This document shows, piece after piece, positions 2,639 through 29,397 of a DNA stretch of 30,742 bases (position 1 is its first letter; the number at the start of each line of letters is the position of its first letter). The stretch comes from a virus (lineage: Duplodnaviria > Caudoviricetes), in IMG/VR virus record IMGVR_UViG_3300030332_001053, positions 1-30,742 of that record; one strand, given 5' to 3'. The notes below the pieces were generated by a model. It did not search any database, was not told the DNA's origin, and saw only the letters and a list, made by a program, of their open reading frames with translations. A program made the position numbers and the translations under genes.

Positions 2639-4777
2639 ATGGCAGATGCAAGTTCGCTACCAGCGATAACGGAACTAATGTACTTCCAATGGAGTACACC
2701 AACGGCGCCTAATCCAAGACTTTCGGCACCAATTGATTCAGATGATACAACCATAGCATTCACATCCGCTCCTTTAGATGAAGATGGAAGTGTAATTACT
2801 GCACCGTTTATCATGGGGGTAAAAAATAGTAATTCTTATGTTGAATCAATTTATTGTCCAAATGGAGCAGATGGAGCTTCAGGACTTTCAGCAACAGGAT
2901 GTATTAGAGGTATCGACTTAGCAGGATTAGATTTCACAGTAGGTGATACGGATAATGCAGATTCGCATGGACAAGATTCTCCAGTTTTCTGTAATATTAC
3001 AGCCGTATTAAACACTATAATGGTTAATACTATACAGGGGGTTGGTGATATGGCGACCGGTGGAGATGATCTCATTATAGGGGATGGAACGGATACAGAT
3101 AAAACAATCAAGGCGGCGATCGTAGCGGGTGCTACTGGATTTATTAGATACAATCCAACTACTAGTAAAGCTCAATATTCTAATGACGGTGCAGTATGGA
3201 ATGATATAGATGATGTAACAGCGGGATCGCTCGTAGTTATAACGGGAGCAGATACAACGCCTGGTAATTTAGACACTAAAATCACAATCGATTCAGATAC
3301 AATGACTAAGACAGTTACAAGTCCAGGTGGTGATGAAAGATTAGAACTTGCAGCAGTCGGAGGACTAGCAGATATTGTCGATGACGTAACTGCAACAGCT
3401 GCGGAGATAAACAATACAATAGATGGTACAACAGCAACAGCGGCTAACCTAAATACTTTAACGGGAGGCGTTAGTAGTAATGCAGATGCTTTACATACAC
3501 ATTCAGATATTGGGGTGTTTTCCGGAACAGCGGGTGAAGCAATAGATGGTTCTAGTACTCCTCAAGCAGTCGTAATAGGACATTCGACTGGTACACACGC
3601 TATTACGATTTGGGAAACAGCTTCGAGTAGAAGTATGAGTTTAGCTTCGCTTTCAGATTTAAATATGGGTGAACAAGATTCGAATCAAATGGTTGCACAG
3701 AGTTTTACATACGAAGATACAGCGGCAGACACAGTAACTTTGAATAAAATTAGAGTGGCGGTGCAGAAAAATAATGGGCCAGGTGATAATTTCCGAGTAT
3801 TCTTATATGACGATAGTAGTGATACACCAGGATCTTTAGTTACAAGCGGGACGGGTACTACCGTAACGGGAGCAAGTTTAAGTTCTAACGCTTATCAGTG
3901 GACTGAGTTCACTTGGGCAGTAGACCCAAGTATAACTCCAGGTGATAAATACTGGATTGTATTCGATAGAAGTGGTGCAAATGATGGAACGAATTATTAT
4001 GAATTAGGATATACAACCAATGCTAGTTATAGTGGTCACGGATATTCGGTATTCGATGATGTAGGCGGAACATGGGGAGCAGAGCATGGAACGAGAGATA
4101 TATGTATGCAAATTATTGTAGATGCTGATTTTTCTGGAGATGTGCTAGAAGCAGATGCGAATGATTATACTAGATTTAATGCAGTTGGATTTACAGCAGA
4201 TAACGTAGCAGGTGGTGCTTCGATAAATGTACAACCATCTGGTGTAGTAAGTGGATTTACAGGTTTAAGCGTAGGAGAGAGATATTATCTCTCAACGACG
4301 AGTGGGGAAATCACAGCTTCACCGAGTGCGAGTGAAGAAGTGGGACTTATTCCTATAGGCACAGCAGTATCAACTACTGAATTATTATTACAGCCAGGAC
4401 AAAAAATGATACGTTGGGAAACTAGTACGATGGATCTTTGGGAGCCAACTGCGGCATATACAGCAGACTTTTTCTTCGAGACAGGATTCAAACCTACGAG
4501 GATTCAATGGTACGTAGATTTCGTTGATAATAGTACGATGTTTGATATAAAATTAGGAGATTCCTTCTTGGCAGTAGATACAGTTAGAGGACTTTCATTA
4601 TCAGACTTAGCAGCTGGTCATGTAATGACTGGTGGAACTGCAACTTTGCAAGATTTAGATACAGGGACACCAACTATATCCGTAATTGAAGTATTTAACA
4701 CTGGAGTAACTATGAGAATAACAGGAAATAGTAATGATTTTGTAGCGGGTATGAGATTTGTAGCATTTGGCAATTAA
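2639..4777 (+). CDS. Multi-domain virion protein (tail fibre / appendage)
   Basis: 712 aa, acidic and T/G/D/S-rich. Contains cement-like motifs (AGEAIDG; GLSVGERYYLS...IGTAVSTTELL) and an internal beta-sandwich (AQSFT...LYDDSSDTPG...GDKYWIV). Confidence 0.65.
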   Translation: MADASSLPAITELMYFQWSTPTAPNPRLSAPIDSDDTTIAFTSAPLDEDGSVITAPFIMGVKNSNSYVESIYCPNGADGASGLSATGCIRGIDLAGLDFTVGDTDNADSHGQDSPVFCNITAVLNTIMVNTIQGVGDMATGGDDLIIGDGTDTDKTIKAAIVAGATGFIRYNPTTSKAQYSNDGAVWNDIDDVTAGSLVVITGADTTPGNLDTKITIDSDTMTKTVTSPGGDERLELAAVGGLADIVDDVTATAAEINNTIDGTTATAANLNTLTGGVSSNADALHTHSDIGVFSGTAGEAIDGSSTPQAVVIGHSTGTHAITIWETASSRSMSLASLSDLNMGEQDSNQMVAQSFTYEDTAADTVTLNKIRVAVQKNNGPGDNFRVFLYDDSSDTPGSLVTSGTGTTVTGASLSSNAYQWTEFTWAVDPSITPGDKYWIVFDRSGANDGTNYYELGYTTNASYSGHGYSVFDDVGGTWGAEHGTRDICMQIIVDADFSGDVLEADANDYTRFNAVGFTADNVAGGASINVQPSGVVSGFTGLSVGERYYLSTTSGEITASPSASEEVGLIPIGTAVSTTELLLQPGQKMIRWETSTMDLWEPTAAYTADFFFETGFKPTRIQWYVDFVDNSTMFDIKLGDSFLAVDTVRGLSLSDLAAGHVMTGGTATLQDLDTGTPTISVIEVFNTGVTMRITGNSNDFVAGMRFVAFGN

Positions 4778-4795
4778 GATATAACTAATTAAATT

Positions 4796-7441
4796 ATGGC
4801 AAGAAAAAGACCAGGAACGATCACCAAGAGTAAACAAAAGGGTAAAGTAATTGTTTTTGGTGCAGTCGATCCTAAGACAGGTAGGCAAAAACAAACCCTG
4901 CGGACCGGTACGGCAGCTGAATTAGCCAAATTTGATCCGGTCAAACCTAAAAGTACTCGATTAAAAACACCGAGTACCGTTACTGCTAGTAAGAATCAGC
5001 CAGGTAAAGTTATAGAGTTTGGAGAGATAGATCCAGTTACAGGTCGGCAACAACAGACGATGAGAACTGGCACAATACCAAGCATTAGTAGCCCAACACC
5101 TAGTAAATCGGGATTCACGTTTTCGACTGATCCTACAACTGGAATAGTAATTGTTAATGACCCCGCAGGATACGCCCAAACACATCGGGGGAATCAAGGT
5201 ATATTTGTCAATAAGACTACTGGTAAATTAACGGATAGCCGAGGTAACCCAGTAGATCAATTTGGACGTCCAGTTAAACCACCGGAAGAAGAAAAAGAAC
5301 GTACATTAGAAGAACAAGCCGAAGATCTGTTGAGATTTCAACACGGTGAATTATCTGATTTAGGTAAGAAGTTTGGAGTAGATACAATACCTACTTCATT
5401 TGAAGATTCACTTAGAAGGCAACAAGAAGAACATCGAGATAGACTAACTTTTGAAGAGGAACAAGCAGAACGACAAAGAATTATAGATCAACAGAATTTA
5501 GATGCATTTAAGGAGAGTGCGGCAGGTTCGGAAGGACAAGCAATTGCATCATTATCACAAGGTCGTGAGGATGCATTTAGTGCCTCCAAGCCAATGGCTT
5601 TAAGCACATTTCAAGAAAATATTCAAAGACAACTTCGTATTCAAATTAGTAGAGTGCAGGGTGCGCAAGCTGCTAGACAACAAGCATTAAAGAATTTACG
5701 AATAGCACAACGAAATAATGATGAAGCAGCTATAGAACAATATTCGGCTAATTTAGCGGGTGCTGAACAGTCGATCCGTCAAGAAACATCACAGTTATTA
5801 CAAGATCAAGCAATGGCGAATGAAGAAGCAAGAAAGCTTGAAACAGCACAACGAGCAGAATTGAAAGGAACGCTAGAAATATTAGGGGCTTCTGGGATTG
5901 CGGACTTAAATCCAGAAGTATTAACAAAATTATTTGTTGATGCAGGATTTTCCCCTGCATTAGCTGATTCTATGCGTGTTGCACAAACTCAATTAGCAGA
6001 AGTTGAAAAAACAGGAGATATATTGGCTATACAGGAAAAACAGTTGACTATAAAAAATCTTGAATTAGAAATGGCTAATAAAAAATTAGGAGGTACAACT
6101 GCTATCCAAGAGTTTAATTATCTTCAAAGTTTAGTTGAAGCTGGTGCAAGCCTCCAAGAAATACAAGATTTTAAGATCCGAGCAGGATTCGTACAAAAGG
6201 CAAAGGATAATAAACGCAGCGTATTAGATAATGCTGTTACCTCAGGAGTAACCCTGAATGATACACGATTAACCCAAGGGGGTGCATCTAATGGTGCCGG
6301 GCGTATTGATCCGACTACATTAATAACTGATTTCTTATTCGGAAGCGGTGAACGTGGAGAACAAGTTGTAAATGCTGCTGGTGAATCGGTGGGGGTCATA
6401 AGTAGTCCTTATGGTGCAGATCATTCTAATATATCTGGTGAAGAGTCGCACAACGGCGTAGATATTAGTTTTAGCAATAATACTGCTGTTGCTTTATCAA
6501 GCGGTACAATAATTGAGAAGGGATTTTCTAGTAATGATTATGGTGCTTTTGTATGGCTGGAAGATCAGAGTGGCAATGTGATGCAGTATGGACATTTAAA
6601 CGTTGATGACGTTAATGGGCTTTCCGTTGGATCTTTTGTGAATTCGGGTGGCACTCTTGCAAGACAAGAAACGGATCCTGATAAATGGGGATCTGCTACG
6701 GGTGCTCATACAGATATACGATTTGCAGGGGTGCAGGATAATACCGCTGATACTATAGTTCAGGAATACGGGTATGGGATATTAGATGGAAGGATGAATA
6801 TTTCAAACGTAACAGGAGTTGACCAAGAAGAAACTGCTATCCTACGAGCTGCAGTCCAAACATTTGTTAATAAAAAATTAAAAGAAGGCTACAAATCAGA
6901 TTACCCAGTATTGACCGAAACACAATTAGAATTAGTAAATCAAATAAGCGATGACTTTAATTCAAATGAGGCAGTATCTGATATGATTGATATTGCTGGA
7001 GGTCTTGATGTTATTTCCGGGGTATTTGGTACAGAAGATAAATTAAAGGGTGCAACAGGTTTAGATGATATTACTGCAATTAACGCATTCCAAAGAATGG
7101 TTGATCCAGGTGCTACAGTACGAACGGACGATGTAACTTTGATAGAAGAAGCACTTCCGTGGTTAGCTAAAGTTAATCCGAAATTCAAATGGCATAAATT
7201 TAAGAAAGGAGATAAATTACCGATTGGAGTTAGGGAATCTCTCGTTCGTGTTGCTGATGAAATATATACCAGTAAAGCAACTAGATTCAACTCAACTATA
7301 GGTAACCAATTCAAACTTAGAGCAGATGCTGCTAATGTACCTTTTAATCTAATAGGTAGAGACTTCACCGTCTTTGAAGATAATCCATTTGCGGGAGTAG
7401 ATACATCTTCCCCAGAGGAAGATTTAAGTGATTTTGATTGA
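4796..7441 (+). CDS. DNA ejection / internal virion protein with coiled coil and M23 peptidase domain
   Basis: 881 aa with a Q/E-rich coiled coil, M23 motifs HNGVD, YGHLN and SATGAHTD, and a C-terminal AFQRMVDPGATVRTDD motif resembling phage DNA-transfer proteins. Confidence 0.7.
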   Translation: MARKRPGTITKSKQKGKVIVFGAVDPKTGRQKQTLRTGTAAELAKFDPVKPKSTRLKTPSTVTASKNQPGKVIEFGEIDPVTGRQQQTMRTGTIPSISSPTPSKSGFTFSTDPTTGIVIVNDPAGYAQTHRGNQGIFVNKTTGKLTDSRGNPVDQFGRPVKPPEEEKERTLEEQAEDLLRFQHGELSDLGKKFGVDTIPTSFEDSLRRQQEEHRDRLTFEEEQAERQRIIDQQNLDAFKESAAGSEGQAIASLSQGREDAFSASKPMALSTFQENIQRQLRIQISRVQGAQAARQQALKNLRIAQRNNDEAAIEQYSANLAGAEQSIRQETSQLLQDQAMANEEARKLETAQRAELKGTLEILGASGIADLNPEVLTKLFVDAGFSPALADSMRVAQTQLAEVEKTGDILAIQEKQLTIKNLELEMANKKLGGTTAIQEFNYLQSLVEAGASLQEIQDFKIRAGFVQKAKDNKRSVLDNAVTSGVTLNDTRLTQGGASNGAGRIDPTTLITDFLFGSGERGEQVVNAAGESVGVISSPYGADHSNISGEESHNGVDISFSNNTAVALSSGTIIEKGFSSNDYGAFVWLEDQSGNVMQYGHLNVDDVNGLSVGSFVNSGGTLARQETDPDKWGSATGAHTDIRFAGVQDNTADTIVQEYGYGILDGRMNISNVTGVDQEETAILRAAVQTFVNKKLKEGYKSDYPVLTETQLELVNQISDDFNSNEAVSDMIDIAGGLDVISGVFGTEDKLKGATGLDDITAINAFQRMVDPGATVRTDDVTLIEEALPWLAKVNPKFKWHKFKKGDKLPIGVRESLVRVADEIYTSKATRFNSTIGNQFKLRADAANVPFNLIGRDFTVFEDNPFAGVDTSSPEEDLSDFD

Positions 7442-14450: not shown

Positions 14451-14807
14451 TTATTGTTCTTTTGGGTACATACTTTCAAACCTGGGGTCTTTAAATTCAT
14501 TTTCGTTAGCGTAGTCGCTATTTAAAAGCCCCCCCAGCCAATTATAGCAAGAAGCCTTCCTAGATACCACTTCATTAGTTAATCTTCCATAGAGATCAAC
14601 CTCGCCTCTCTCTGTCGATCCTATCGTTTTATCTTCTAATTGTAATACTTTGAATCCACATAAATCTTTTGCGGAATTAAAGAATGCTTGTTTTTGTATT
14701 TGTACTTGCCGATCAAAACCCGATCCAGCGAATACTACTTGCGCCGCTAGCGAACCTACTATAGCCGCTATAACGAAGTAACCGATATGTTTTTTTGTAA
14801 ACCGCAT
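14451..14807 (-). CDS. Protein with N-terminal signal/TM segment
   Basis: MRFTKKH-IGYFVIAAIVGSLAAQVVFA; ends with TAC CCA AAA GAA CAA TAA. Confidence 0.75.
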   Translation of the reverse strand: MRFTKKHIGYFVIAAIVGSLAAQVVFAGSGFDRQVQIQKQAFFNSAKDLCGFKVLQLEDKTIGSTERGEVDLYGRLTNEVVSRKASCYNWLGGLLNSDYANENEFKDPRFESMYPKEQ

Positions 14808-14824
14808 GTTGCAATTTGGTTAAA

Positions 14825-15169
14825 TTATTCAAAATTACTTATATTTATTTGAGCAGTCATTATTTTATTCATGGATTGACAGACTGCCAGTGCTATTTCC
14901 ATTCTCTTAAATAAACTAAGAGCCTTATAATGTTCTGTTCGAGCATTTTCTAATCCTTTAAGATAATCTTTATATTCTTGACTACCTAATGCTTCTCGCT
15001 CTCTGGATGCTTCACTACCAGTAAAACCTTTACCAATAGCAGCGATCATAGACTTCTGTAGCTCCTTAAGGTTTTCATAAGTAGCTTTCGTATCATAGTA
15101 TTCATTACATACTTTTGGAGCTGTCTTAAGAATATCATTAAGCCGATCTATTATTTCATTTGGGTTCAT
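14825..15169 (-). CDS. Hypothetical helical protein
   Basis: 114 aa, coiled-coil-like, in the recombination module. Confidence 0.75.
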   Translation of the reverse strand: MNPNEIIDRLNDILKTAPKVCNEYYDTKATYENLKELQKSMIAAIGKGFTGSEASREREALGSQEYKDYLKGLENARTEHYKALSLFKRMEIALAVCQSMNKIMTAQINISNFE

Positions 15170-15171
15170 AT

Positions 15172-15591
15172 CTAAAAGGGTAAATCATCTATTTCTACTT
15201 CTTCTTTTTCAGCTATCGCTTTATCTATTCGTTCTTCCGTATCGTGGCTCATACATGCGCCTTTTGCTTCTTCTAAAGATATTTTGTGAACAAGGTTAAT
15301 AAAGTACCGGACTTCCTTACCCTCTTTGCCGTTTGTCTTCACGCCGAATGTTTTGCCATTAATATCACATTTACCTTCTTTGTAAGCACCGGTAAGCATT
15401 TGCCCCAATTGTGCTTGAGAAACCTCGAGGCCACCATGATCCGTGATAAGAAAGTATCTCTTAGCATATCCTGGTTTCCAAGTATTAGAAGTGAGCATCT
15501 TGCGTTCTGCATCATCCCACATTTTCCACGTAAAACCTTTCGCCTCCATAACAGAGAAAGATATTCCGTCTTTTAGTCTTATATAGTCCAT
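15172..15591 (-). CDS. Putative single-stranded DNA-binding protein
   Basis: Beta-rich body with an acidic tail ending EEVEIDDLPF (SSB-Ct-like); next to the exonuclease. Confidence 0.6.
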   Translation of the reverse strand: MDYIRLKDGISFSVMEAKGFTWKMWDDAERKMLTSNTWKPGYAKRYFLITDHGGLEVSQAQLGQMLTGAYKEGKCDINGKTFGVKTNGKEGKEVRYFINLVHKISLEEAKGACMSHDTEERIDKAIAEKEEVEIDDLPF

Positions 15592-15600
15592 TAGTAAAAA

Positions 15601-16290
15601 TTAAATTTTGAAATATTCAGGGAACACATGTTGATTAGGTTTAGCGTTTGGGTACTTGACCTCAAACACGTTACTAATCGCTTCAAACTCCGCCCAATTC
15701 TCCTTAGCCTTTTTAAGTGGTAGGAAGCTCCAGCCTTTCTTAGTGGTGTTCCCCAAATGTAAGAGGGCTAGATTCCCCACCTTCTCAGAATAGCCGTAAG
15801 CAGCTAACTGAACCTTGTGGGAATTATGGATAGATTTACTTGTCTTATAATCTACAAGCCATATCTCACCGTCAATCTTGCACTTTAAATCTATAGTGCC
15901 AGCGAAATTATGTTTGTCGTTCCAAGTGATATACTCAGCGTCTATGATCTCGGGCTTAACTTCTTCTATCCATTCGAGGAATCCGCTCAAGCACTTTAAT
16001 ACTTTAAGAGACTGTTTAGACTTGAACATGCCTCTTACTTCGTCAGAAGATACTTTGTCTCCTTTAACCATCCTTTCAAGACAGTCATGGACGTAAGAAC
16101 CTAAAGCTCCAGATTCTTCCATGATCTCATCTGCTCTCTTATTACCTACGTCTCCTCTCCATTGCTGTAGTCCCCATTCAGAGGGTCCGGCCGTTGAGAG
16201 CTTATAGGTTACCGAGGGATTGTAATCCTCGCCTCTTTGGTAGAATCTCTCATCAAACTCGTATACGTTGATTTGTTTTATTTCATTCAT
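15601..16290 (-). CDS. PD-(D/E)XK exonuclease (RecB/Cas4-like phage family)
   Basis: PSVT, GSYVH, E, FAGTID, LVDYKT and QLAAY motifs. Confidence 0.9.
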   Translation of the reverse strand: MNEIKQINVYEFDERFYQRGEDYNPSVTYKLSTAGPSEWGLQQWRGDVGNKRADEIMEESGALGSYVHDCLERMVKGDKVSSDEVRGMFKSKQSLKVLKCLSGFLEWIEEVKPEIIDAEYITWNDKHNFAGTIDLKCKIDGEIWLVDYKTSKSIHNSHKVQLAAYGYSEKVGNLALLHLGNTTKKGWSFLPLKKAKENWAEFEAISNVFEVKYPNAKPNQHVFPEYFKI

Positions 16291-16517
16291 TTTAAGTTTT
16301 GGTTAATATAATTAATGGTATCTTTGTCGAGCGCCACATTGTTGACTAGGTGATCCAGGTATTCTTCTAGCTGCTCTAGTTTTGCCCAAGCGGCAAATGG
16401 TATCGCCATCCATTCTAGCTTACTTTCGCAAGATTTAAACTCCCGTAGAATTTCTAGCGCGATCTTTAAGTCATGCTTTTTCCGCTTAGTTTTTAAAAAA
16501 TCCGTGATCTTCGCCAT
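16287..16517 (-). CDS. Hypothetical protein
   Basis: 76 aa with ATGA coupling to the exonuclease. Confidence 0.7.
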   Translation of the reverse strand: MAKITDFLKTKRKKHDLKIALEILREFKSCESKLEWMAIPFAAWAKLEQLEEYLDHLVNNVALDKDTINYINQNLK

Positions 16518-16518
16518 T

Positions 16519-16899
16519 TTAATTCTTGGTTAATGATTTAAAATATTCCTCCCATAGGGCGTCCTCGTTGGCCGCAACGTAATCCATTAGTAAATCAGTG
16601 TAGCCGTCCTCATGTACCAGTCCTTCCCATTCGGGGTCAGGTATTTCCTTATCCTTATTCAGCCGGGTCCATTCCCAGAGCAGATCCATATTGTCCTTCT
16701 TCCATTGATCGCTGCCTTCTGGTGCGCTGTACCGCATAGCTCGAACGACTGTTAGTATCTCGGTAATCTCAAACGCTGCTACCGAATCCTTGGCCGTATA
16801 GTGGCGCTGAGTTACAAGCGCTTTTCTAATGATATCTAGTTCGTTGTTTGTTAGCTCTCGAGCTATTGCTGGCGGTCGTACTTCTGTTGCTTTATTCAT
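16519..16899 (-). CDS. Hypothetical protein
   Basis: 126-aa ORF packed in the operon. Confidence 0.7.
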   Translation of the reverse strand: MNKATEVRPPAIARELTNNELDIIRKALVTQRHYTAKDSVAAFEITEILTVVRAMRYSAPEGSDQWKKDNMDLLWEWTRLNKDKEIPDPEWEGLVHEDGYTDLLMDYVAANEDALWEEYFKSLTKN

Positions 16900-17089
16900 T
16901 ATTAGAGTGGTTAAGTGATTCTTCGTATCCGTAGAACCATGTGTCAGTATTCTGGTGCGAAGTACAAAACTTCTCGGCAGCCTCGTACGACATGTGCGAC
17001 TTGATTAGCTCCCGAGGGCTACCTATCTTAGATATTTTAAACAGGTCGTACGGAAGATCTTTGAATGTTTTTGCTTTAGACATATTCAT
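16892..17089 (-). CDS. Hypothetical protein (start 17089 or 17083)
   Basis: 65-aa ORF overlapping both neighbours. Confidence 0.65.
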   Translation of the reverse strand: MNMSKAKTFKDLPYDLFKISKIGSPRELIKSHMSYEAAEKFCTSHQNTDTWFYGYEESLNHSNNE

Positions 17090-17243
17090 GATGGTTAACT
17101 AATAAATTAGACGGATCGTAGTTTAAACAATCCTCATTTGAACAAGCGAGATACTCGAATTGTACGAGTTCATAATCTCCTTGAAAGGTATCCTCGGTGA
17201 GTACCTTTATTGGTTGCCTACATAGGCTGCATAGCATATTCAT
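17076..17243 (-). CDS. Small zinc-ribbon-like protein (55 aa), first gene of a leftward operon
   Basis: MNMLCSLCRQPIK...YLACSNEDCLNY (CxxC ... CxxxxC), directly after a promoter. Not in the ORF track. Confidence 0.65.
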   Translation of the reverse strand: MNMLCSLCRQPIKVLTEDTFQGDYELVQFEYLACSNEDCLNYDPSNLLVNHHEYV

Positions 17244-17272
17244 GTTGCAATGTTAAATGATATACTGAATAT

Positions 17273-17301
17273 ATCATACTATAAGTTAAGGTTAAAGTAA
17301 A
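17273..17301 (-). promoter_or_regulatory. Leftward sigma70 promoter
   Basis: TTTACT (17301-17296), 17 nt, TATGAT (17278-17273). Confidence 0.6.
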
Positions 17302-17306
17302 CCCTT

Positions 17307-17543
17307 TTATTTAATATTTAATTCCATAACCTTATATCCTAAATCTGTAATCATTAAAGAACGATTGACTGAGGAATATCCCACTAGTTTAAGATTACGT
17401 AATGTCTTAAGTCTAAGATTGACAGATGTTTTACTAATGTTTAGTTTTTCTGCAATTTCAACTTGTTTGGGGCTATTCTCGTATGTATTTCGAAAATCCT
17501 CGATAAACTGTAATAGCTCTAACTGATTGCTACTTAATTTCAT
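17307..17543 (-). CDS. LexA-type winged-helix DNA-binding protein (no peptidase domain)
   Basis: LSSNQLELLQFI...SPKQVEIAEKLNISKTSVNLRLKTL matches the LexA N-terminal domain pattern; 78 aa only. Confidence 0.8.
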   Translation of the reverse strand: MKLSSNQLELLQFIEDFRNTYENSPKQVEIAEKLNISKTSVNLRLKTLRNLKLVGYSSVNRSLMITDLGYKVMELNIK

Positions 17544-19466: not shown

Positions 19467-19760
19467 TTAACAAAGTCTAATATTTTCCCCTCTAGTATAA
19501 ATTGCCTCAGCCTGTAATTTACGTTGTTCGGACGAAGGTGGTAAGATTTCACACTTAATACGAAGTAATGTAGCTGCTTTAGCCATATACATAATCTTCT
19601 TTAGGTCATTGTCGATTGGCCGTTGGAGTAAATACTCCCATGTGGCTATCAACATTCCAGTATTGTCTCCGGCAAGTTTAGGATCTGCCTTCACGATATT
19701 AGCGACGATTTTTTCACGTCGATCCATATCATCAAAGGACTTTTTCCATTTGATCCGCAT
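19467..19760 (-). CDS. Hypothetical protein, first gene of the nucleotide-metabolism operon
   Basis: 97-aa ORF directly after a promoter. Confidence 0.65.
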   Translation of the reverse strand: MRIKWKKSFDDMDRREKIVANIVKADPKLAGDNTGMLIATWEYLLQRPIDNDLKKIMYMAKAATLLRIKCEILPPSSEQRKLQAEAIYTRGENIRLC

Positions 19761-19786
19761 GATGCATGTTGTTAAATTATGAATAA

Positions 19787-19815
19787 AATATAAATTAAGT
19801 TAATTCAAAAGTAAA
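19787..19815 (-). promoter_or_regulatory. Leftward sigma70 promoter
   Basis: TTTACT (19815-19810), 17 nt, TATATT (19792-19787). Confidence 0.55.
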
Positions 19816-19835
19816 GCCTTAAGTCTGAAAAGGGG

Positions 19836-19863
19836 TTTACAAAACCTATGATCGGTGTATATT
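19836..19863 (+). promoter_or_regulatory. Rightward promoter for the candidate sRNA
   Basis: TTTACA (19836-19841), 16 nt, TATATT (19858-19863). Confidence 0.45.
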
Positions 19864-19869
19864 GTTTCT

Positions 19870-19987
19870 GCATGTTGCAATGTATTCTATCTTGCCGATC
19901 CCAAGGGATTATAGAGGTAGAATTTGACTCTCGGTAGGACGAAAGGGCTCAGGCTTGATCTATCCTACCAATGGGAGTTTTTAATTT
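19870..19987 (+). ncRNA. Candidate small regulatory RNA (5' seed, two hairpins, U-tract)
   Basis: Unpaired 19870-19883; stem 19884-19893/19914-19923; stems 19926-19932/19973-19979 and 19933-19939/19963-19969; T-rich tail; no substantial ORF. Confidence 0.5.
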
Positions 19988-20012
19988 ACTTTTTCGATAA
20001 TGTATGTATAAT
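19985..20012 (+). promoter_or_regulatory. Promoter for the replication genes
   Basis: TTTACT (19985-19990), 16 nt, TATAAT (20007-20012). Confidence 0.5.
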
Positions 20013-20027
20013 ATACTCATAAACTAA

Positions 20028-20130
20028 TCGTACACGTTATATTTATATTTATATTCGACAGTTTCAACCTCTTCATTCGCAAGACGTGTGCGAGCTTATT
20101 GTGCGTGGAGGGGTTGAAGTTGTTTAATAT
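20028..20130 (+). promoter_or_regulatory. Structured 5' leader of the initiator gene (long hairpin plus possible pseudoknot)
   Basis: Stem 20051-20076/20105-20130 with G-U pairs; 20028-20038 is complementary to loop segment 20083-20093. Confidence 0.55.
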
Positions 20131-20138
20131 ATTTTAAT

Positions 20139-20909
20139 ATGTTTACGACGATATTTCACCCATTACGGAAGATGTACCGCATGTCGTGCAACGAATATAT
20201 GGTTTTAGATTCCGTTCGAACTTTATCCGCTAATGCTGATTATGATTTTTGGTGTGTGATGTCGATACAGCGAATTGCCGACAACTTAGATCTCCATTAC
20301 AACACTGTATCGCTCGCAATGAAAAAATTAGAAGAGGTTGGACTATTAGTCCGGCGTAGGACAAATCCACAGGACACAGCATGTCGAGTTACGAATGAAT
20401 GGCACCAATGGTTCGCCCAAGGAACAGGTGACTTAATTATGGCTCTTAAAAATAAAAACGGTGAAGTAACGGGGTATATACCAAGGAAAACTATGAAACA
20501 AATTAATAAATCTGGAAACCCCCACAAAAAATGTGGCACCCCCACTAAAAATGTGGTAGACCCCCACAAAAAACGTGGGGGGGGTCCCACAAAAAACGTG
20601 GGTAATATATATAAAGATATAGATATCAATAAAATATATACCCTCTATAAGGAAAAAATTCAGAAGAATGCACGATTAACTGACGCAGCTAAAAAGAAAA
20701 TTAATACACGTTTAAAGGAATTCTCCGTTCAAGAAATAAATATTGCTATTGAAAACTTTGCTGCTGACTCATGGTGGATGGAAAAGAATTCCAACAAAGG
20801 AATGAAATGGTTCTTTGATACAGACGATAGGATTGAACAGTTTATAAATCTTAAACCTAAAATTATTAAAAAATCTAAACCAATTAAAAAACTAATCTCA
20901 ACCCTATGA
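20139..20909 (+). CDS. Phage replication initiator (lambda O-like replisome organiser)
   Basis: N-terminal wHTH (SIQRIADNLDLHYNTVSLAMKKLEEVGLL), repeat-coded linker, helical C-terminal domain; ATGA-coupled to the helicase. Confidence 0.85.
   Translation: MFTTIFHPLRKMYRMSCNEYMVLDSVRTLSANADYDFWCVMSIQRIADNLDLHYNTVSLAMKKLEEVGLLVRRRTNPQDTACRVTNEWHQWFAQGTGDLIMALKNKNGEVTGYIPRKTMKQINKSGNPHKKCGTPTKNVVDPHKKRGGGPTKNVGNIYKDIDINKIYTLYKEKIQKNARLTDAAKKKINTRLKEFSVQEINIAIENFAADSWWMEKNSNKGMKWFFDTDDRIEQFINLKPKIIKKSKPIKKLISTL
20521..20640. repeat. Four 16-bp iterons plus AT-rich tract: probable replication origin
   Basis: CCCACWAAAAAYGTGG at 20521, 20541, 20563 and 20586, each with an internal CCAC/GTGG dyad, followed by AT-rich 20603-20640. 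Confidence 0.85.
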
Positions 20910-23985: not shown

Positions 23986-24147
23986 ATGCAAGACTACCTA
24001 GTGAAAGCGTATTTAACAATCGAAGAGCGACACAAGCTTGAGGTTCTTAAGTCTGCTTTGGGAGTGAAGTCTAATAGTGGGGTAATTAGGAAGTTAATTG
24101 CGTTGATCTATAGTTTACAATTTGAAGATTTAACCAACCAACAATGA
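23986..24147 (+). CDS. Putative ribbon-helix-helix regulator (53 aa)
   Basis: MQDYLVKAYLT-IEERHKLEVLKSALG-VKSNSGVIRKLI strand-helix-turn-helix pattern, with its own promoter. Not in the ORF track. Confidence 0.6.
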   Translation: MQDYLVKAYLTIEERHKLEVLKSALGVKSNSGVIRKLIALIYSLQFEDLTNQQ

Positions 24148-24266: not shown

Positions 24267-26039
24267 ATGTCTAACTTCACTTTGGATCCGATGCCTAATC
24301 TGACTCCTACCGATGGAAAAGATGATAAGGCTGTTCGGACTGCACTAGAGGTTATGCAAGAGCATAACGATATTAAAGAACAACGAGACTCAGACAATCA
24401 AACTATAATGGATTTGATGGAACGAGGATTTAAAGTTGTTGATCCTTCCGGAACGCGTCAAATATCTTCTAAAGCTTTACAGCAAGCCTTATGGAGAACA
24501 ATACAAAGAATGAAACCATTGGATTTCACAATTCATGGGACTGGTAGACCGGAGTTTATGGAACAATTCGTAACTCAAGGTGTTTCAACAGTTTTAGATC
24601 GAGGTGGATATGTTAAAGCTTTACGAGATAAACAAGGAGCGTTTTTTAATTTACTTTTATTAGGAGATGCATTTATTCAAGTGGGAACTAATCCGAGTGA
24701 GTATGATATGCCTATTGGGTTTAATACAATTTCCAATTCGAATGTTTATGTAGATCCTTTCGCTACAGTAATGAGAGCTGAATCTAGTGGACGAAGTGTA
24801 AGCAAGATGGTGGTAGTGTTTAGTTATTCATGGGCAGAAGCAGTTAAGTTTTATCCTAAACTTAAAAAGATAGGAGGTGCTGGAAGAATTCCAAGAGATT
24901 TAACGTTTGATAAAGAAACAGCACGATCACAACAACAAACAACGCAAATAAAAGAAAAGACTGATTTAGTTGAGATAGCTCATTTTTACGATATAGCAAA
25001 TAAAAATTACACAGTATTCGCAGGTCCTTCATGTACCGTTTTGGAAAAGAAAAGCGGAGATAAATATCCGTTTGTGAAAGGAAAGAAACCGTATATCCCC
25101 GTAATTCACATGATCTGTCAACCAGCGAGTGAAGGGTTCTATAATCACGGTATTGGAGATATGATCTATGATTTAGCGGTTCTCTCACAGAGATTACTCA
25201 ATATGGAAATCAATCATGTCAACGACAACACTTATCCTATTGAATTAGTAAACTTACCAAAAGATAAATCAGCTAAGTTCTTTAATGATCTAATGGCAGC
25301 ACATGAGATGAGAGCAGCAGGTAAGAAAGGATTTGTACCAGTTGAATACGATGCTAATAGTCCGGGAAGTTCTCAAATTAGCTCTCAAACACTTTTGACG
25401 AATAACTTGACTAATGAATGGCAATTGATCTTTGAGCAGCTTACAAGAGAGATTTCAAGATTAGGTATAAACCTAGACGAAGCAGATCGAGGAGCTAATG
25501 TAACGGCTACTCAGATATTAAGTGAAGAAGAAGCAGCTAATTCATTTGTTAAGCAAGTAATGGAATACAATGCGAGTGAAACAAAGTTCTCTATTGAGCT
25601 TACAATGGATATGATTGAAGAATTTATTGGTAAGAAAAATAAAACTAAGTTAAACCTAACAACGTTAATTGATGTCGATGGAGTAGAATTACCTCTAGAT
25701 GAAGCTACACTTGGTAATTTATCGAGTGAACTAAAGGAAGGGGATTATTTTGTTAAGGTTAATGCTCGAACGGGTGCAGTACCTTCTAACATCTTACAGC
25801 AAGCACAGATTAGCAGAATCTTACCTTTAACCCCGCCTGGTACGCCAGCATTTGCGAAACTACAAAAACAACTTGCTGATCTGAATGACAGAGATTTATC
25901 AATGGAAGATTTTGCACTGATACAACAGGCACCACAAATAGCTGAAGAAGCGATCGAGGGAGCAACAGAACCTGGATTGGCTGATACGGAGCGTGCAAGA
26001 ATCAACCCTAGAATCACTGAACCAGAACCAGCATTATGA
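24267..26039 (+). CDS. Portal protein
   Basis: 590 aa after terL with the P22-like pattern (LLLGDAFI, VYVDP, PYIPVI...FYNHGIG, TATQI). Extended -10 TGaTATAAT at 24225-24233. Confidence 0.88.
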   Translation: MSNFTLDPMPNLTPTDGKDDKAVRTALEVMQEHNDIKEQRDSDNQTIMDLMERGFKVVDPSGTRQISSKALQQALWRTIQRMKPLDFTIHGTGRPEFMEQFVTQGVSTVLDRGGYVKALRDKQGAFFNLLLLGDAFIQVGTNPSEYDMPIGFNTISNSNVYVDPFATVMRAESSGRSVSKMVVVFSYSWAEAVKFYPKLKKIGGAGRIPRDLTFDKETARSQQQTTQIKEKTDLVEIAHFYDIANKNYTVFAGPSCTVLEKKSGDKYPFVKGKKPYIPVIHMICQPASEGFYNHGIGDMIYDLAVLSQRLLNMEINHVNDNTYPIELVNLPKDKSAKFFNDLMAAHEMRAAGKKGFVPVEYDANSPGSSQISSQTLLTNNLTNEWQLIFEQLTREISRLGINLDEADRGANVTATQILSEEEAANSFVKQVMEYNASETKFSIELTMDMIEEFIGKKNKTKLNLTTLIDVDGVELPLDEATLGNLSSELKEGDYFVKVNARTGAVPSNILQQAQISRILPLTPPGTPAFAKLQKQLADLNDRDLSMEDFALIQQAPQIAEEAIEGATEPGLADTERARINPRITEPEPAL

Positions 26040-26445: not shown

Positions 26446-27117
26446 ATGTCTGAGGACAAAGAACAGAAAGAAAGTGAGCAGCTATTCGCTGACACAGCCG
26501 AATCTGAGTCAGACCCAGATGACGCAAGTACCACTGAAACCACCGAAGGTGAGCAAAGTGAAGAAAGCCAGGAACTTGAGCTTGAAGATCCGAAAGGAGA
26601 AGAGCCTAAGTCAAAAGCCTCTATCGCAGAGGAAAACAGGCGGAAGCAACTCGCTGCTTGGGAGAAGAAAGTAGATAACGGTGAAGCCGATATCACGGAA
26701 GCTCCTAAGTGGATTCAAAAAGAGTTGGCACCGCCAGTTGACGTGCAAGCGGTTGTCAAAGAACAACTAGCACTTGAACGCCAAGCACAAAAGTTTAAAG
26801 AGTTAAAGGATGACTTGACTCTAGCAAGGTTACCAAAAGCTGAACAAGCTGCCTTGCAAGAACAGTTCGGAAAGTATCGTGATTTAGGTTTACCTATGTA
26901 CGATGCACTCGAAACTGCAGTTAAGGTCACAGGTGTTAAACTACCAACTCAACAAGCTTTAGATGTTAAACGCAAAAGCATGTCTCTACCAAAGCCAGGA
27001 TATTATTCTGACGGAACCACTACCGACATTAAAGGCGAAATGACAGCCGAAAAGTTCGATAAAATGGATCCTGATAAGAAACTGGGATGGATGGAAACAC
27101 AGCGACAAGGCAGATAA
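26446..27117 (+). CDS. Capsid scaffolding protein (probable start MSEDK at 26446; track gives 26422)
   Basis: Highly acidic disordered N-terminus and helical core; directly before the capsid gene. Confidence 0.8.
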   Translation: MSEDKEQKESEQLFADTAESESDPDDASTTETTEGEQSEESQELELEDPKGEEPKSKASIAEENRRKQLAAWEKKVDNGEADITEAPKWIQKELAPPVDVQAVVKEQLALERQAQKFKELKDDLTLARLPKAEQAALQEQFGKYRDLGLPMYDALETAVKVTGVKLPTQQALDVKRKSMSLPKPGYYSDGTTTDIKGEMTAEKFDKMDPDKKLGWMETQRQGR

Positions 27118-29281: not shown

Positions 29282-29323
29282 AGCGTAACTATTTTATATG
29301 AATCGAATGACCAAACTTAAAAA

Positions 29324-29374
29324 GAAATAGTTTCCTAGAGCGTCTCTTCGGGGACGTTCTATGGAGGTTATTTC
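29324..29374 (+). terminator. Long hairpin with cUUCGg loop (terminator or processing/stability stem)
   Basis: TAGAGCGTCTC-TTCG-GGGACGTTCTA core extended by 12 further pairs after a 1-nt bulge; no strong U-tract. Confidence 0.6.
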
Positions 29375-29397
29375 AATAATAATTTAATTTTAATAGC

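What the first reader, a model, noticed from the sequence alone, without database searches (positions are those of the whole stretch)
19836..19987. Candidate trans-acting sRNA whose 5' seed matches the start regions of three leftward genes
Seen: in the divergent control region a rightward promoter (expected +1 near 19870) precedes GCATGTTGCAATGT, then two hairpins and a T-tract. The unpaired leader ends exactly where stem 1 begins (19884). The same plus-strand word recurs at 17241-17253 (13 nt), 14804-14815 (12 nt) and 19763-19771 (9 nt). On the minus-strand mRNAs these sites cover the AUG of the zinc-ribbon gene (17243) and the AUG of the TM/muramidase gene (14807), and lie just upstream of the AUG at 19760. 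Two of the three are the first genes after the leftward promoters. Established: P4 CI RNA and P1 C4 RNA control phage development by short pairings. Inference: an RNA switch that silences the early arm by masking initiation sites in a host without SD sites; no CI-type repressor is visible in the window. Alternative: the word (TTGCAA core) is a DNA operator.
Basis: partly seen in the sequence, partly recalled or inferred. Interest (0 to 1): 0.8.

Follow-up and report, generated by a model that had tools for sequence, protein, structure and literature searches.

The report
Phage small RNA mirrors start codons
A marine phage carries a roughly 115-base non-coding stretch whose first 14 letters exactly mirror the start-codon regions of two of its own early genes, and a related phage has a different mirror matching the genes in the same two positions, so it is likely a small RNA that would switch these genes off by base pairing.

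Summary
Bases 19870-19883 match the AUG regions of 17243 (13 nt) and 14807 (12 nt), the top two of 50 starts by duplex energy. A double match this long arose in 3 of 300 shuffles. The plus strand folds well (z -4.0) and ends in a T-tract.

The third site (19760) is weaker and probably a duplicate of the 17243 leader, so it is not independent.

New evidence: the only relative holding the same early arm (G005) has a structured, T-ended element (z -4.2) with a different seed. Its top two of 50 starts occupy the same slots: the CxxC gene before the exonuclease, and the membrane gene after the 114-aa homolog. Swapped seeds do not pair.

Best reading: a trans-acting phage sRNA that masks AUGs in a host without Shine-Dalgarno sites (0.65). 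It rests on one relative, no RNA data, and no sequence homology between the two RNAs. No integrase was found, so a timer fits better than a lysogeny switch. It works like Bacteroides FopS; it is not C4 or CI. This scan noted similar anti-start-codon RNAs in other phages before.

The parts
19836..19863 (+). Candidate sigma70-type promoter of the RNA (TTTACA-16-TATATT); +1 inferred at about 19870
   Evidence: 10/12 consensus match; such matches are not above chance in the region (30 found, 32 expected)
19870..19883 (+). Seed: 14-nt 5' segment antisense to the AUG regions of 17243 and 14807; weak 4-bp mini-hairpin predicted
19884..19923 (+). Hairpin 1
   Evidence: predicted fold
19926..19987 (+). 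Hairpin 2 (19926-19979) and T-tract from 19978; likely an atypical intrinsic terminator
   Evidence: not listed by the simple terminator scan; passes my hairpin-plus-T test
17241..17253 (-). Target 1: 13-nt site covering the AUG of the 55-aa CxxC gene (17076-17243), first gene after the second leftward promoter and head of the run leading to the exonuclease
   Evidence: -19.3 kcal/mol; rank 1 of 55 by cofolding; weak Pfam Phage_zn_bind match E 0.0097
14804..14815 (-). Target 2: 12-nt site covering the AUG of the 118-aa membrane-anchored ORF (14451-14807), directly after the 114-aa gene
   Evidence: -19.6; rank 3 of 55 by cofolding
19757..19771 (-). Weak possible target 3 at the start of the 97-aa gene (19467-19760); probably a decayed copy of the target-1 leader
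   Evidence: (-14.5)
19787..19815 (-). Leftward promoter candidate PL1, back to back with the RNA's promoter
   Evidence: 9/12; resembles PL2
17268..17301 (-). Leftward promoter candidate PL2
   Evidence: two overlapping 9/12 matches
14825..15169 (-). 114-aa gene, the synteny anchor for target 2 (32% identical to G005 476-832)
15601..16290 (-). PD-(D/E)XK exonuclease gene, the synteny anchor for target 1
19985..20012 (+). Separate promoter candidate for the replication initiator gene (20139-20909), downstream of the T-tract
   Evidence: 10/12; gene family

Best explanation
The phage carries a folded, T-ended non-coding unit at 19870-19987 whose first 14 bases are complementary to the start-codon regions of two early leftward genes, and it is likely transcribed as a small RNA that would pair over those AUGs and block ribosome loading. 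Shown: the complementarity, its rank among all starts, the lack of SD sites, and a second phage with another seed and position-equivalent targets. Predicted: the fold and the duplex energies. Inferred: transcription from the 19836 promoter, termination at 19978-19987, translational repression, and knock-on effects on downstream coupled genes (the CxxC-exonuclease run and the membrane/muramidase cluster). Because its promoter sits back to back with PL1 and no integrase is present, the RNA most likely builds up during infection and cuts the early leftward proteins to a pulse; it could also block a second phage with the same seed. The seed works as a private address that is rewritten together with its targets in each phage lineage.
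For: Seed duplex ranks 14807 (-19.6) and 17243 (-19.3) first of 50 starts (median -5.6), and they are the two best non-self 30-nt windows of the whole window. A double match of 12 nt or more arose in 3 of 300 shuffles. Plus-strand fold z -4.0 against -1.8 for the minus strand. SD-like sites at 1 of 47 ORFs. G005 shares the initiator (37%), terminase (66%), exonuclease and 114-aa gene and has a folded T-ended element at 6105-6245 (z -4.17, 0 of 200). Its seed (6174-6187) ranks 2786 (68-aa CxxC gene right before the exonuclease) and 486 (33-aa hydrophobic peptide right after the 114-aa homolog) first of 50 (-19.8, -15.7; next -9.9), also by whole-RNA cofolding (-19.5, -15.0; next -8.9). The G005 target-1 duplex extends through a G-U pair to 14 bp. 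Swapped seeds give -1.6 to -5.7. In 35 contigs or loci with 3,088 non-coding CAT sites, 17 sites in 9 contigs match two starts by 11 nt or more, and only the window's and G005's have a hairpin and T-tail behind.
Against: No transcript has been observed. Only one relative could be tested. The two RNAs share no detectable sequence, lie at different loci and carry the seed in different places (5' end against between hairpins), and the two CxxC proteins do not align, so this is matching design, not column-by-column covariation. G005's double match alone appears in 9 of 300 shuffles. The hairpin-plus-T test passes 111 of 3,088 sites, and its thresholds were set after I had seen both cases. G005's promoter is seen by eye only and is not listed by the scan. 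By cofolding, a late-gene start (30220, -13.2) ties with 14807 (-13.1). G013, 99% complete with terminase, portal and capsid at 52-61%, shows no such unit. The seed is partly self-paired.
Confidence: 0.65

Rival explanations
1. The shared word is a double-stranded DNA operator bound by a phage protein (the 78-aa winged-helix protein at 17307-17543 or the 53-aa ORF at 23986), and the hairpins are only a terminator.
For: Three of the four sites lie at about +1 to +20 of predicted promoters (19870, 17241, 19763). The core hexamer is palindromic (sequence). A LexA-type DNA-binding domain protein is encoded next to PL2.
Against: Outside the hexamer the sites are not dyads. Site 14804 has no close promoter match (nearest 9/12 ends at 14862). 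In G005 the three copies are not at promoters, differ in spacing by one base and pair through G-U. In both phages the word sits on the AUG. PL1 and PL2 share a separate spacer motif that is a better operator candidate.
Confidence: 0.13
2. The two gene starts share a leader by duplication or start-context bias, the third copy is chance, and 19870-19987 is just a terminated leader or insulator between the divergent arms.
For: PL1 and PL2 leaders look duplicated (score 69, 0 of 2,000 shuffles, next best of 55 upstream regions 57). G013 has 22-nt repeated start leaders. AT-rich double matches of 11-13 nt occur in 7 other contigs. The finding was picked from many windows, and the shuffle rate is about 1%.
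Against: It does not explain why the copy begins at the predicted +1 and ends at stem 1, nor the independent G005 case with the same two slots. G013's repeated leaders have no non-coding antisense copy.
Confidence: 0.15
3. The word acts on the minus (sense) strand as a start motif or a binding site for a translational repressor protein, and the copy at 19873 starts a 22-aa leader peptide on a leftward transcript.
For: The minus strand has an ATG at 19873 in the same context, opening 22 codons.
Against: Folding and the T-tract favour the plus strand. No leftward promoter is listed between 19815 and 20131. The equivalent ORF in G005 is 10 codons and unrelated. The word marks only 2 of 50 starts.
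Confidence: 0.07

Closest known systems
FopS / GibS sRNAs of Bacteroides thetaiotaomicron (PMC11697453, passages read)
   Same: [quoted passage not shown]
   Different: Host-encoded, multicopy, targets glycan-use operons and binds RbpB. Here it is a single phage copy with two hairpins, aimed at the phage's own early genes, with a seed that differs between phages; no Rfam match.
P1 C4 antisense RNA (PMC8198154, passages; Rfam RF01695 named in PMC2864571, passages)
   Same: Phage RNA that represses phage genes by base pairing.
   Different: C4 lies in one operon with its targets icd and ant and supports C1-based lysogeny. Here the targets are on opposite-strand transcripts 2.6 and 5.1 kb away, with no icd/ant or CI-type peptidase found.
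P4 CI RNA (PMC4825925, passages)
   Same: Small phage RNA acting through short pairings at two sites.
   Different: CI is processed from the transcript it controls and causes premature termination through seqA and seqC flanking it. Here the sites are AUGs of other transcripts, pointing to translation control.
24B_1 of Stx phage, P22 sar, lambda OOP and aQ (PMC12197685, parts 1-2 of 6 read)
   Same: Phage RNAs that turn down the phage's own regulatory genes; sar blocks translation initiation.
   Different: Each has one known or proposed phage target tied to the lysis-lysogeny decision; sar, OOP and aQ are antisense RNAs of a single gene. None is described there as a multi-target anti-AUG seed.

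Membership tests
C4 antisense RNA (RF01695) | Match to the Rfam covariance model | tested here: not met
   0 matches at E up to 1 over the whole window against 4,227 families; none for L202 either
C4 antisense RNA (RF01695) | Encoded in the c4-icd-ant operon, targets in the same transcript | tested here: not met
   No icd/ant family among 49 proteins scanned; targets are on the other strand
P4 CI RNA | Targets seqA/seqC flank the RNA in its own primary transcript and cause termination | tested here: not met
   The seed's complements lie on minus-strand mRNAs at AUGs; none in the rightward leader among the best 15 windows
P4 CI RNA | Released by processing of a longer transcript | not testable with these tools
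   Needs RNA end mapping
FopS/GibS | R1 seed sequence and Rfam model match | tested here: not met
   No Rfam match; the paper says the FopS structure was deposited in Rfam, I did not check the accession
Trans-encoded base-pairing sRNA (class) | Encoded apart from targets, short complementarity to translation-start regions of several mRNAs | tested here: met
Trans-encoded base-pairing sRNA (class) | Own promoter and intrinsic terminator | tested here: inconclusive
   Promoter 10/12 but not above chance; hairpin and T-tract present but atypical
Trans-encoded base-pairing sRNA (class) | Seed conserved or co-varying with targets | tested here: inconclusive
   One relative with a different seed and position-equivalent targets, no alignable RNA; possible second seed copy in G007 without testable targets
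Trans-encoded base-pairing sRNA (class) | Transcript exists and represses by pairing | not testable with these tools
   Needs RNA-seq and reporter tests

The most novel reading that the evidence does not exclude
Phages of hosts without Shine-Dalgarno sites run a protein-free control layer: one small RNA whose anti-AUG seed and the start-codon tags of fixed early genes are rewritten together in each lineage. This gives every phage a private RNA code for timing its early arm and for shutting out only its own kin, with the RNA gene free to move and refold as long as the address is kept.
Probability: 0.3. Interest if true: 0.8.

Novelty: new variant of a known kind. Interest (0 to 1): 0.58.

Why it matters
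In the review sections I read (PMC12197685, parts 1-2 of 6), phage RNAs that act on the phage's own genes each have a single target and come from Proteobacteria phages. A multi-target, trans-acting anti-AUG RNA in a phage with no integrase or CI-type repressor found would show how phages time early genes by RNA alone when the host offers no SD site to mask. The two phages provide a ready orthogonal pair (seed A with targets A, seed B with targets B), which makes the claim cheap to test. They also give a search rule, seed-to-AUG complementarity plus terminator, that finds RNAs sequence searches miss.

Tried and rejected
Searches for a sequence homolog of the RNA found none: Rfam, blastn on 50,697 phage records (only short AT-rich hits), an exact 14-mer scan of viral contigs (119 loci of about 160 estimated; no extended similarity, none with promoter plus fold like the window in the top 14 of 120), and 5 related records.

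Single-protein scans of viral contigs with the initiator, helicase and capsid gave nothing. Both genome-contig scans were empty, so no host was identified; a Patescibacteria-like host is my impression from the TAAC start context and promoter type, not a result. The Atlas gave no function for the 118-aa target and no host.

The metagenome scan returned only the same phage (L139, L140, 99.9%) and distant DnaB genes. No RNA holder listed among 20 runs. Contigs of 8 DNA runs list no variant at the seed or target sites, so they give no covariation.

G008's 14/13/12-nt hit is AT-rich, sits against a gene start and has no terminator; treated as chance. G023's hits come from end repeats. G013's 16130-16640 non-coding stretch shows no seed unit. 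A lysogeny-switch reading was dropped for lack of integrase, resolvase or S24 peptidase in 4 of 4 records, three of which are incomplete.

Paper searches listed no report of this RNA or of an anti-AUG multi-target phage sRNA. I saw listings and abstract starts for most hits, the library lacks most subscription papers, and I opened no supplements; the table of 38 unstudied phage sRNAs in PMC12197685 may bear on novelty.

Full report
Setting. The window is a 30.7-kb linear phage record, 84% complete, found in marine metagenome runs. Structural and lysis genes run rightward. A leftward early arm (19760 to 11270) holds a dUTPase/thymidylate synthase/dCMP deaminase cassette, a winged-helix gene, an exonuclease and NinG. 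An O-like initiator and DnaB helicase start the rightward arm at 20139. Only 1 of 47 ORFs has an SD-like site, and 19 have TAAC upstream. The host was not identified. A second assembly (L140) is identical over 19760-20140.

Observation. The plus strand of 19870-19995 folds into a 14-nt leader, hairpin 1 (19884-19923), hairpin 2 (19926-19979) and a T-tract, z -4.0; the minus strand gives z -1.8. The leader is predicted to form a weak 4-bp mini-hairpin. The promoter match is good (10/12) but not above chance for the region. Triple 11-mers are common (14 in the window), so what matters is the placing. Of 11,375 CAT-containing 14-mers, only the two that are this leader match two of 50 starts across the AUG by 12 nt or more. 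The seed's best non-self partners in the whole window are 14807 (-19.6) and 17243 (-19.3), against a median of -5.6. Dinucleotide shuffles of the non-coding DNA reached this in 3 of 300 runs. With the whole RNA cofolded, the order among 55 starts is 17243, 30220 (a late gene), 14807, 19760, thymidylate synthase, so specificity is good but not perfect.

The third site. The 9-nt match at 19763-19771 needs base 19869 and covers an out-of-frame AUG. The best duplex uses another register and covers the 19760 AUG with a mismatch and a bulge (-14.5). The 80 bases upstream of 19760 and of 17243 resemble each other more than any other of 55 upstream regions (score 69 against 57; 0 of 2,000 shuffles). 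I infer an old duplication, perhaps when the thymidylate cassette came in. This site is a weak paralog, not independent evidence.

Relatives. No sequence homolog of the RNA was found. A profile of the initiator's N-terminal domain gave 73 viral loci. One, L202 = G005, shares the layout: divergent arms, initiator 37%, terminase 66%, exonuclease, and a homolog of the 114-aa gene. Its divergent gap has no such RNA. But between its initiator operon and terminase lies a folded, T-ended stretch (6105-6245, z -4.17) with a different seed between two hairpins. That seed's best two of 50 starts are 2786, a 68-aa CxxC gene directly before the exonuclease, and 486, a 33-aa hydrophobic peptide directly after the 114-aa homolog (-19.8 and -15.7, next -9.9). 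The window's targets are a 55-aa CxxC gene heading the run to the exonuclease and a membrane-anchored ORF directly after the 114-aa gene. Swapped seeds do not pair (-1.6 to -5.7).

Limits of that result. It is one genome. The two CxxC proteins do not align, the RNAs share no sequence, and G005's promoter is by eye only (not listed), so that RNA may instead be the 3' end of the initiator operon. Its double match alone occurs in 9 of 300 shuffles. G007 has the same 10-base core as the G005 seed just before a strong hairpin in a similar gap (6 distinct contexts of that word in the loci held; overall alignment not significant, 103 of 2,000). Its early arm is missing, so targets cannot be tested.

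Controls. Over 35 contigs or loci of 13-47 kb (chosen from those I held), 17 of 3,088 non-coding CAT sites in 9 contigs match two starts by 11 nt or more. Only the window's and G005's are followed by a hairpin and T-tail; the base rate of that tail is 111 of 3,088. The thresholds were set after seeing both cases, so this is a sanity check, not a test. G013, close in capsid, portal and terminase but with another replication module, has repeated start leaders and no antisense copy.

Mechanism. Shown: complementarity, rank, lack of SD sites, and the second phage. Predicted: folds and duplexes. Inferred: a roughly 115-nt RNA from a promoter back to back with PL1 pairs over positions about -10 to +4 of the target AUGs and blocks initiation, with polar effects on coupled downstream genes. 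No tyrosine integrase, resolvase or S24 peptidase was found in G000, G005, G013 or G007 (three are incomplete), so I favour a lytic timer, possibly doubling as kin-specific exclusion, over a lysogeny switch. The operator reading keeps some weight because three window sites lie just after predicted promoters and a LexA-type DNA-binding protein is present. It fails to explain G005, where the copies are away from promoters, differ in spacing and pair through G-U.

Comparison. [quoted passage not shown] It is not a member of that family, nor of C4 or P4 CI: no Rfam match and the target geometry differs (PMC8198154 and PMC4825925, passages). PMC5415839 (passages) and PMC12197685 (parts 1-2 of 6) list the classic phage antisense RNAs, none of this design in what I read. 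Seven paper searches listed no report of it. Earlier notes of this scan describe anti-start-codon RNAs in Bacteroidota and T4-like phages; they are unchecked, share no sequence with this one and are not counted as support.

Verdict. A real feature, most likely a trans-acting phage sRNA (0.65), a new variant of a known kind; interest 0.58. The rewritten seed with kept target slots is the notable part and needs more relatives and an RNA measurement.

Noticed in passing
window 20028-20038 and 20083-20093 (+); L204, L207, L208, L215, L217, L222, L246, L254, L274 upstream of the initiator gene: The initiator's 5' leader has a long hairpin (z -5.0) whose loop is complementary to a stretch near the leader's 5' end (11 bp, 2 G-U). 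About 14 of 41 distinct leaders of related initiators, counted by eye, show the same cross-pairing with different sequences: a likely covarying pseudoknot or kissing leader. No real Rfam hit in 7 loci. No formal control was run.
   Followed up: partly
window 14466-14460 (-): An X-XXY-YYZ slippery heptamer three codons before the stop of the 118-aa ORF; the -1 frame is open from 14475 to 14038 and holds a weak glucosaminidase match (E 8.4e-5, below cut-off). A -1 frameshift would give a membrane-anchored muramidase.
   Followed up: partly
window 19870-19883; G005 6174-6187: Both seeds have CAT and ATG a few bases apart and can form a 4-bp mini-hairpin; 17243, 19760 and both G005 targets also have CAT 3-6 bases before the ATG (base rate 5 of 47 and 4 of 42). 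Could hint at loop-loop initiation; unexplained.
   Followed up: partly
window 17268-17301 and 19787-19815 (-): The two leftward promoters share a -35 word and an 8-base spacer motif at the same position; a candidate operator for the 78-aa winged-helix protein and a sign that the thymidylate cassette came in with a duplicated promoter.
   Followed up: partly
window 20518-20601: Four 19-nt repeats inside the initiator gene, likely origin iterons.
   Followed up: no
G013 24427-25181 and 26617-27064: Small early genes carry repeated 20-22-nt start leaders (three and two or three copies), and 16130-16640 is a long structured non-coding stretch.
   Followed up: partly
G007 3196-3270 (+): Promoter-like site, the G005 seed core with the first C of CAT changed to T (still able to pair by G-U), and a strong hairpin; possible third member, targets not in the contig.
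   Followed up: partly
window 29320-29380: Strong hairpin in the gap after the 311-aa structural gene, probably a terminator.
   Followed up: no
protein P0124 (window 15172-15591): Recorded on 10 contigs, the longest 67,780 bases, longer than the roughly 38-kb phage; concatemer, misassembly or integration is not known.
   Followed up: no
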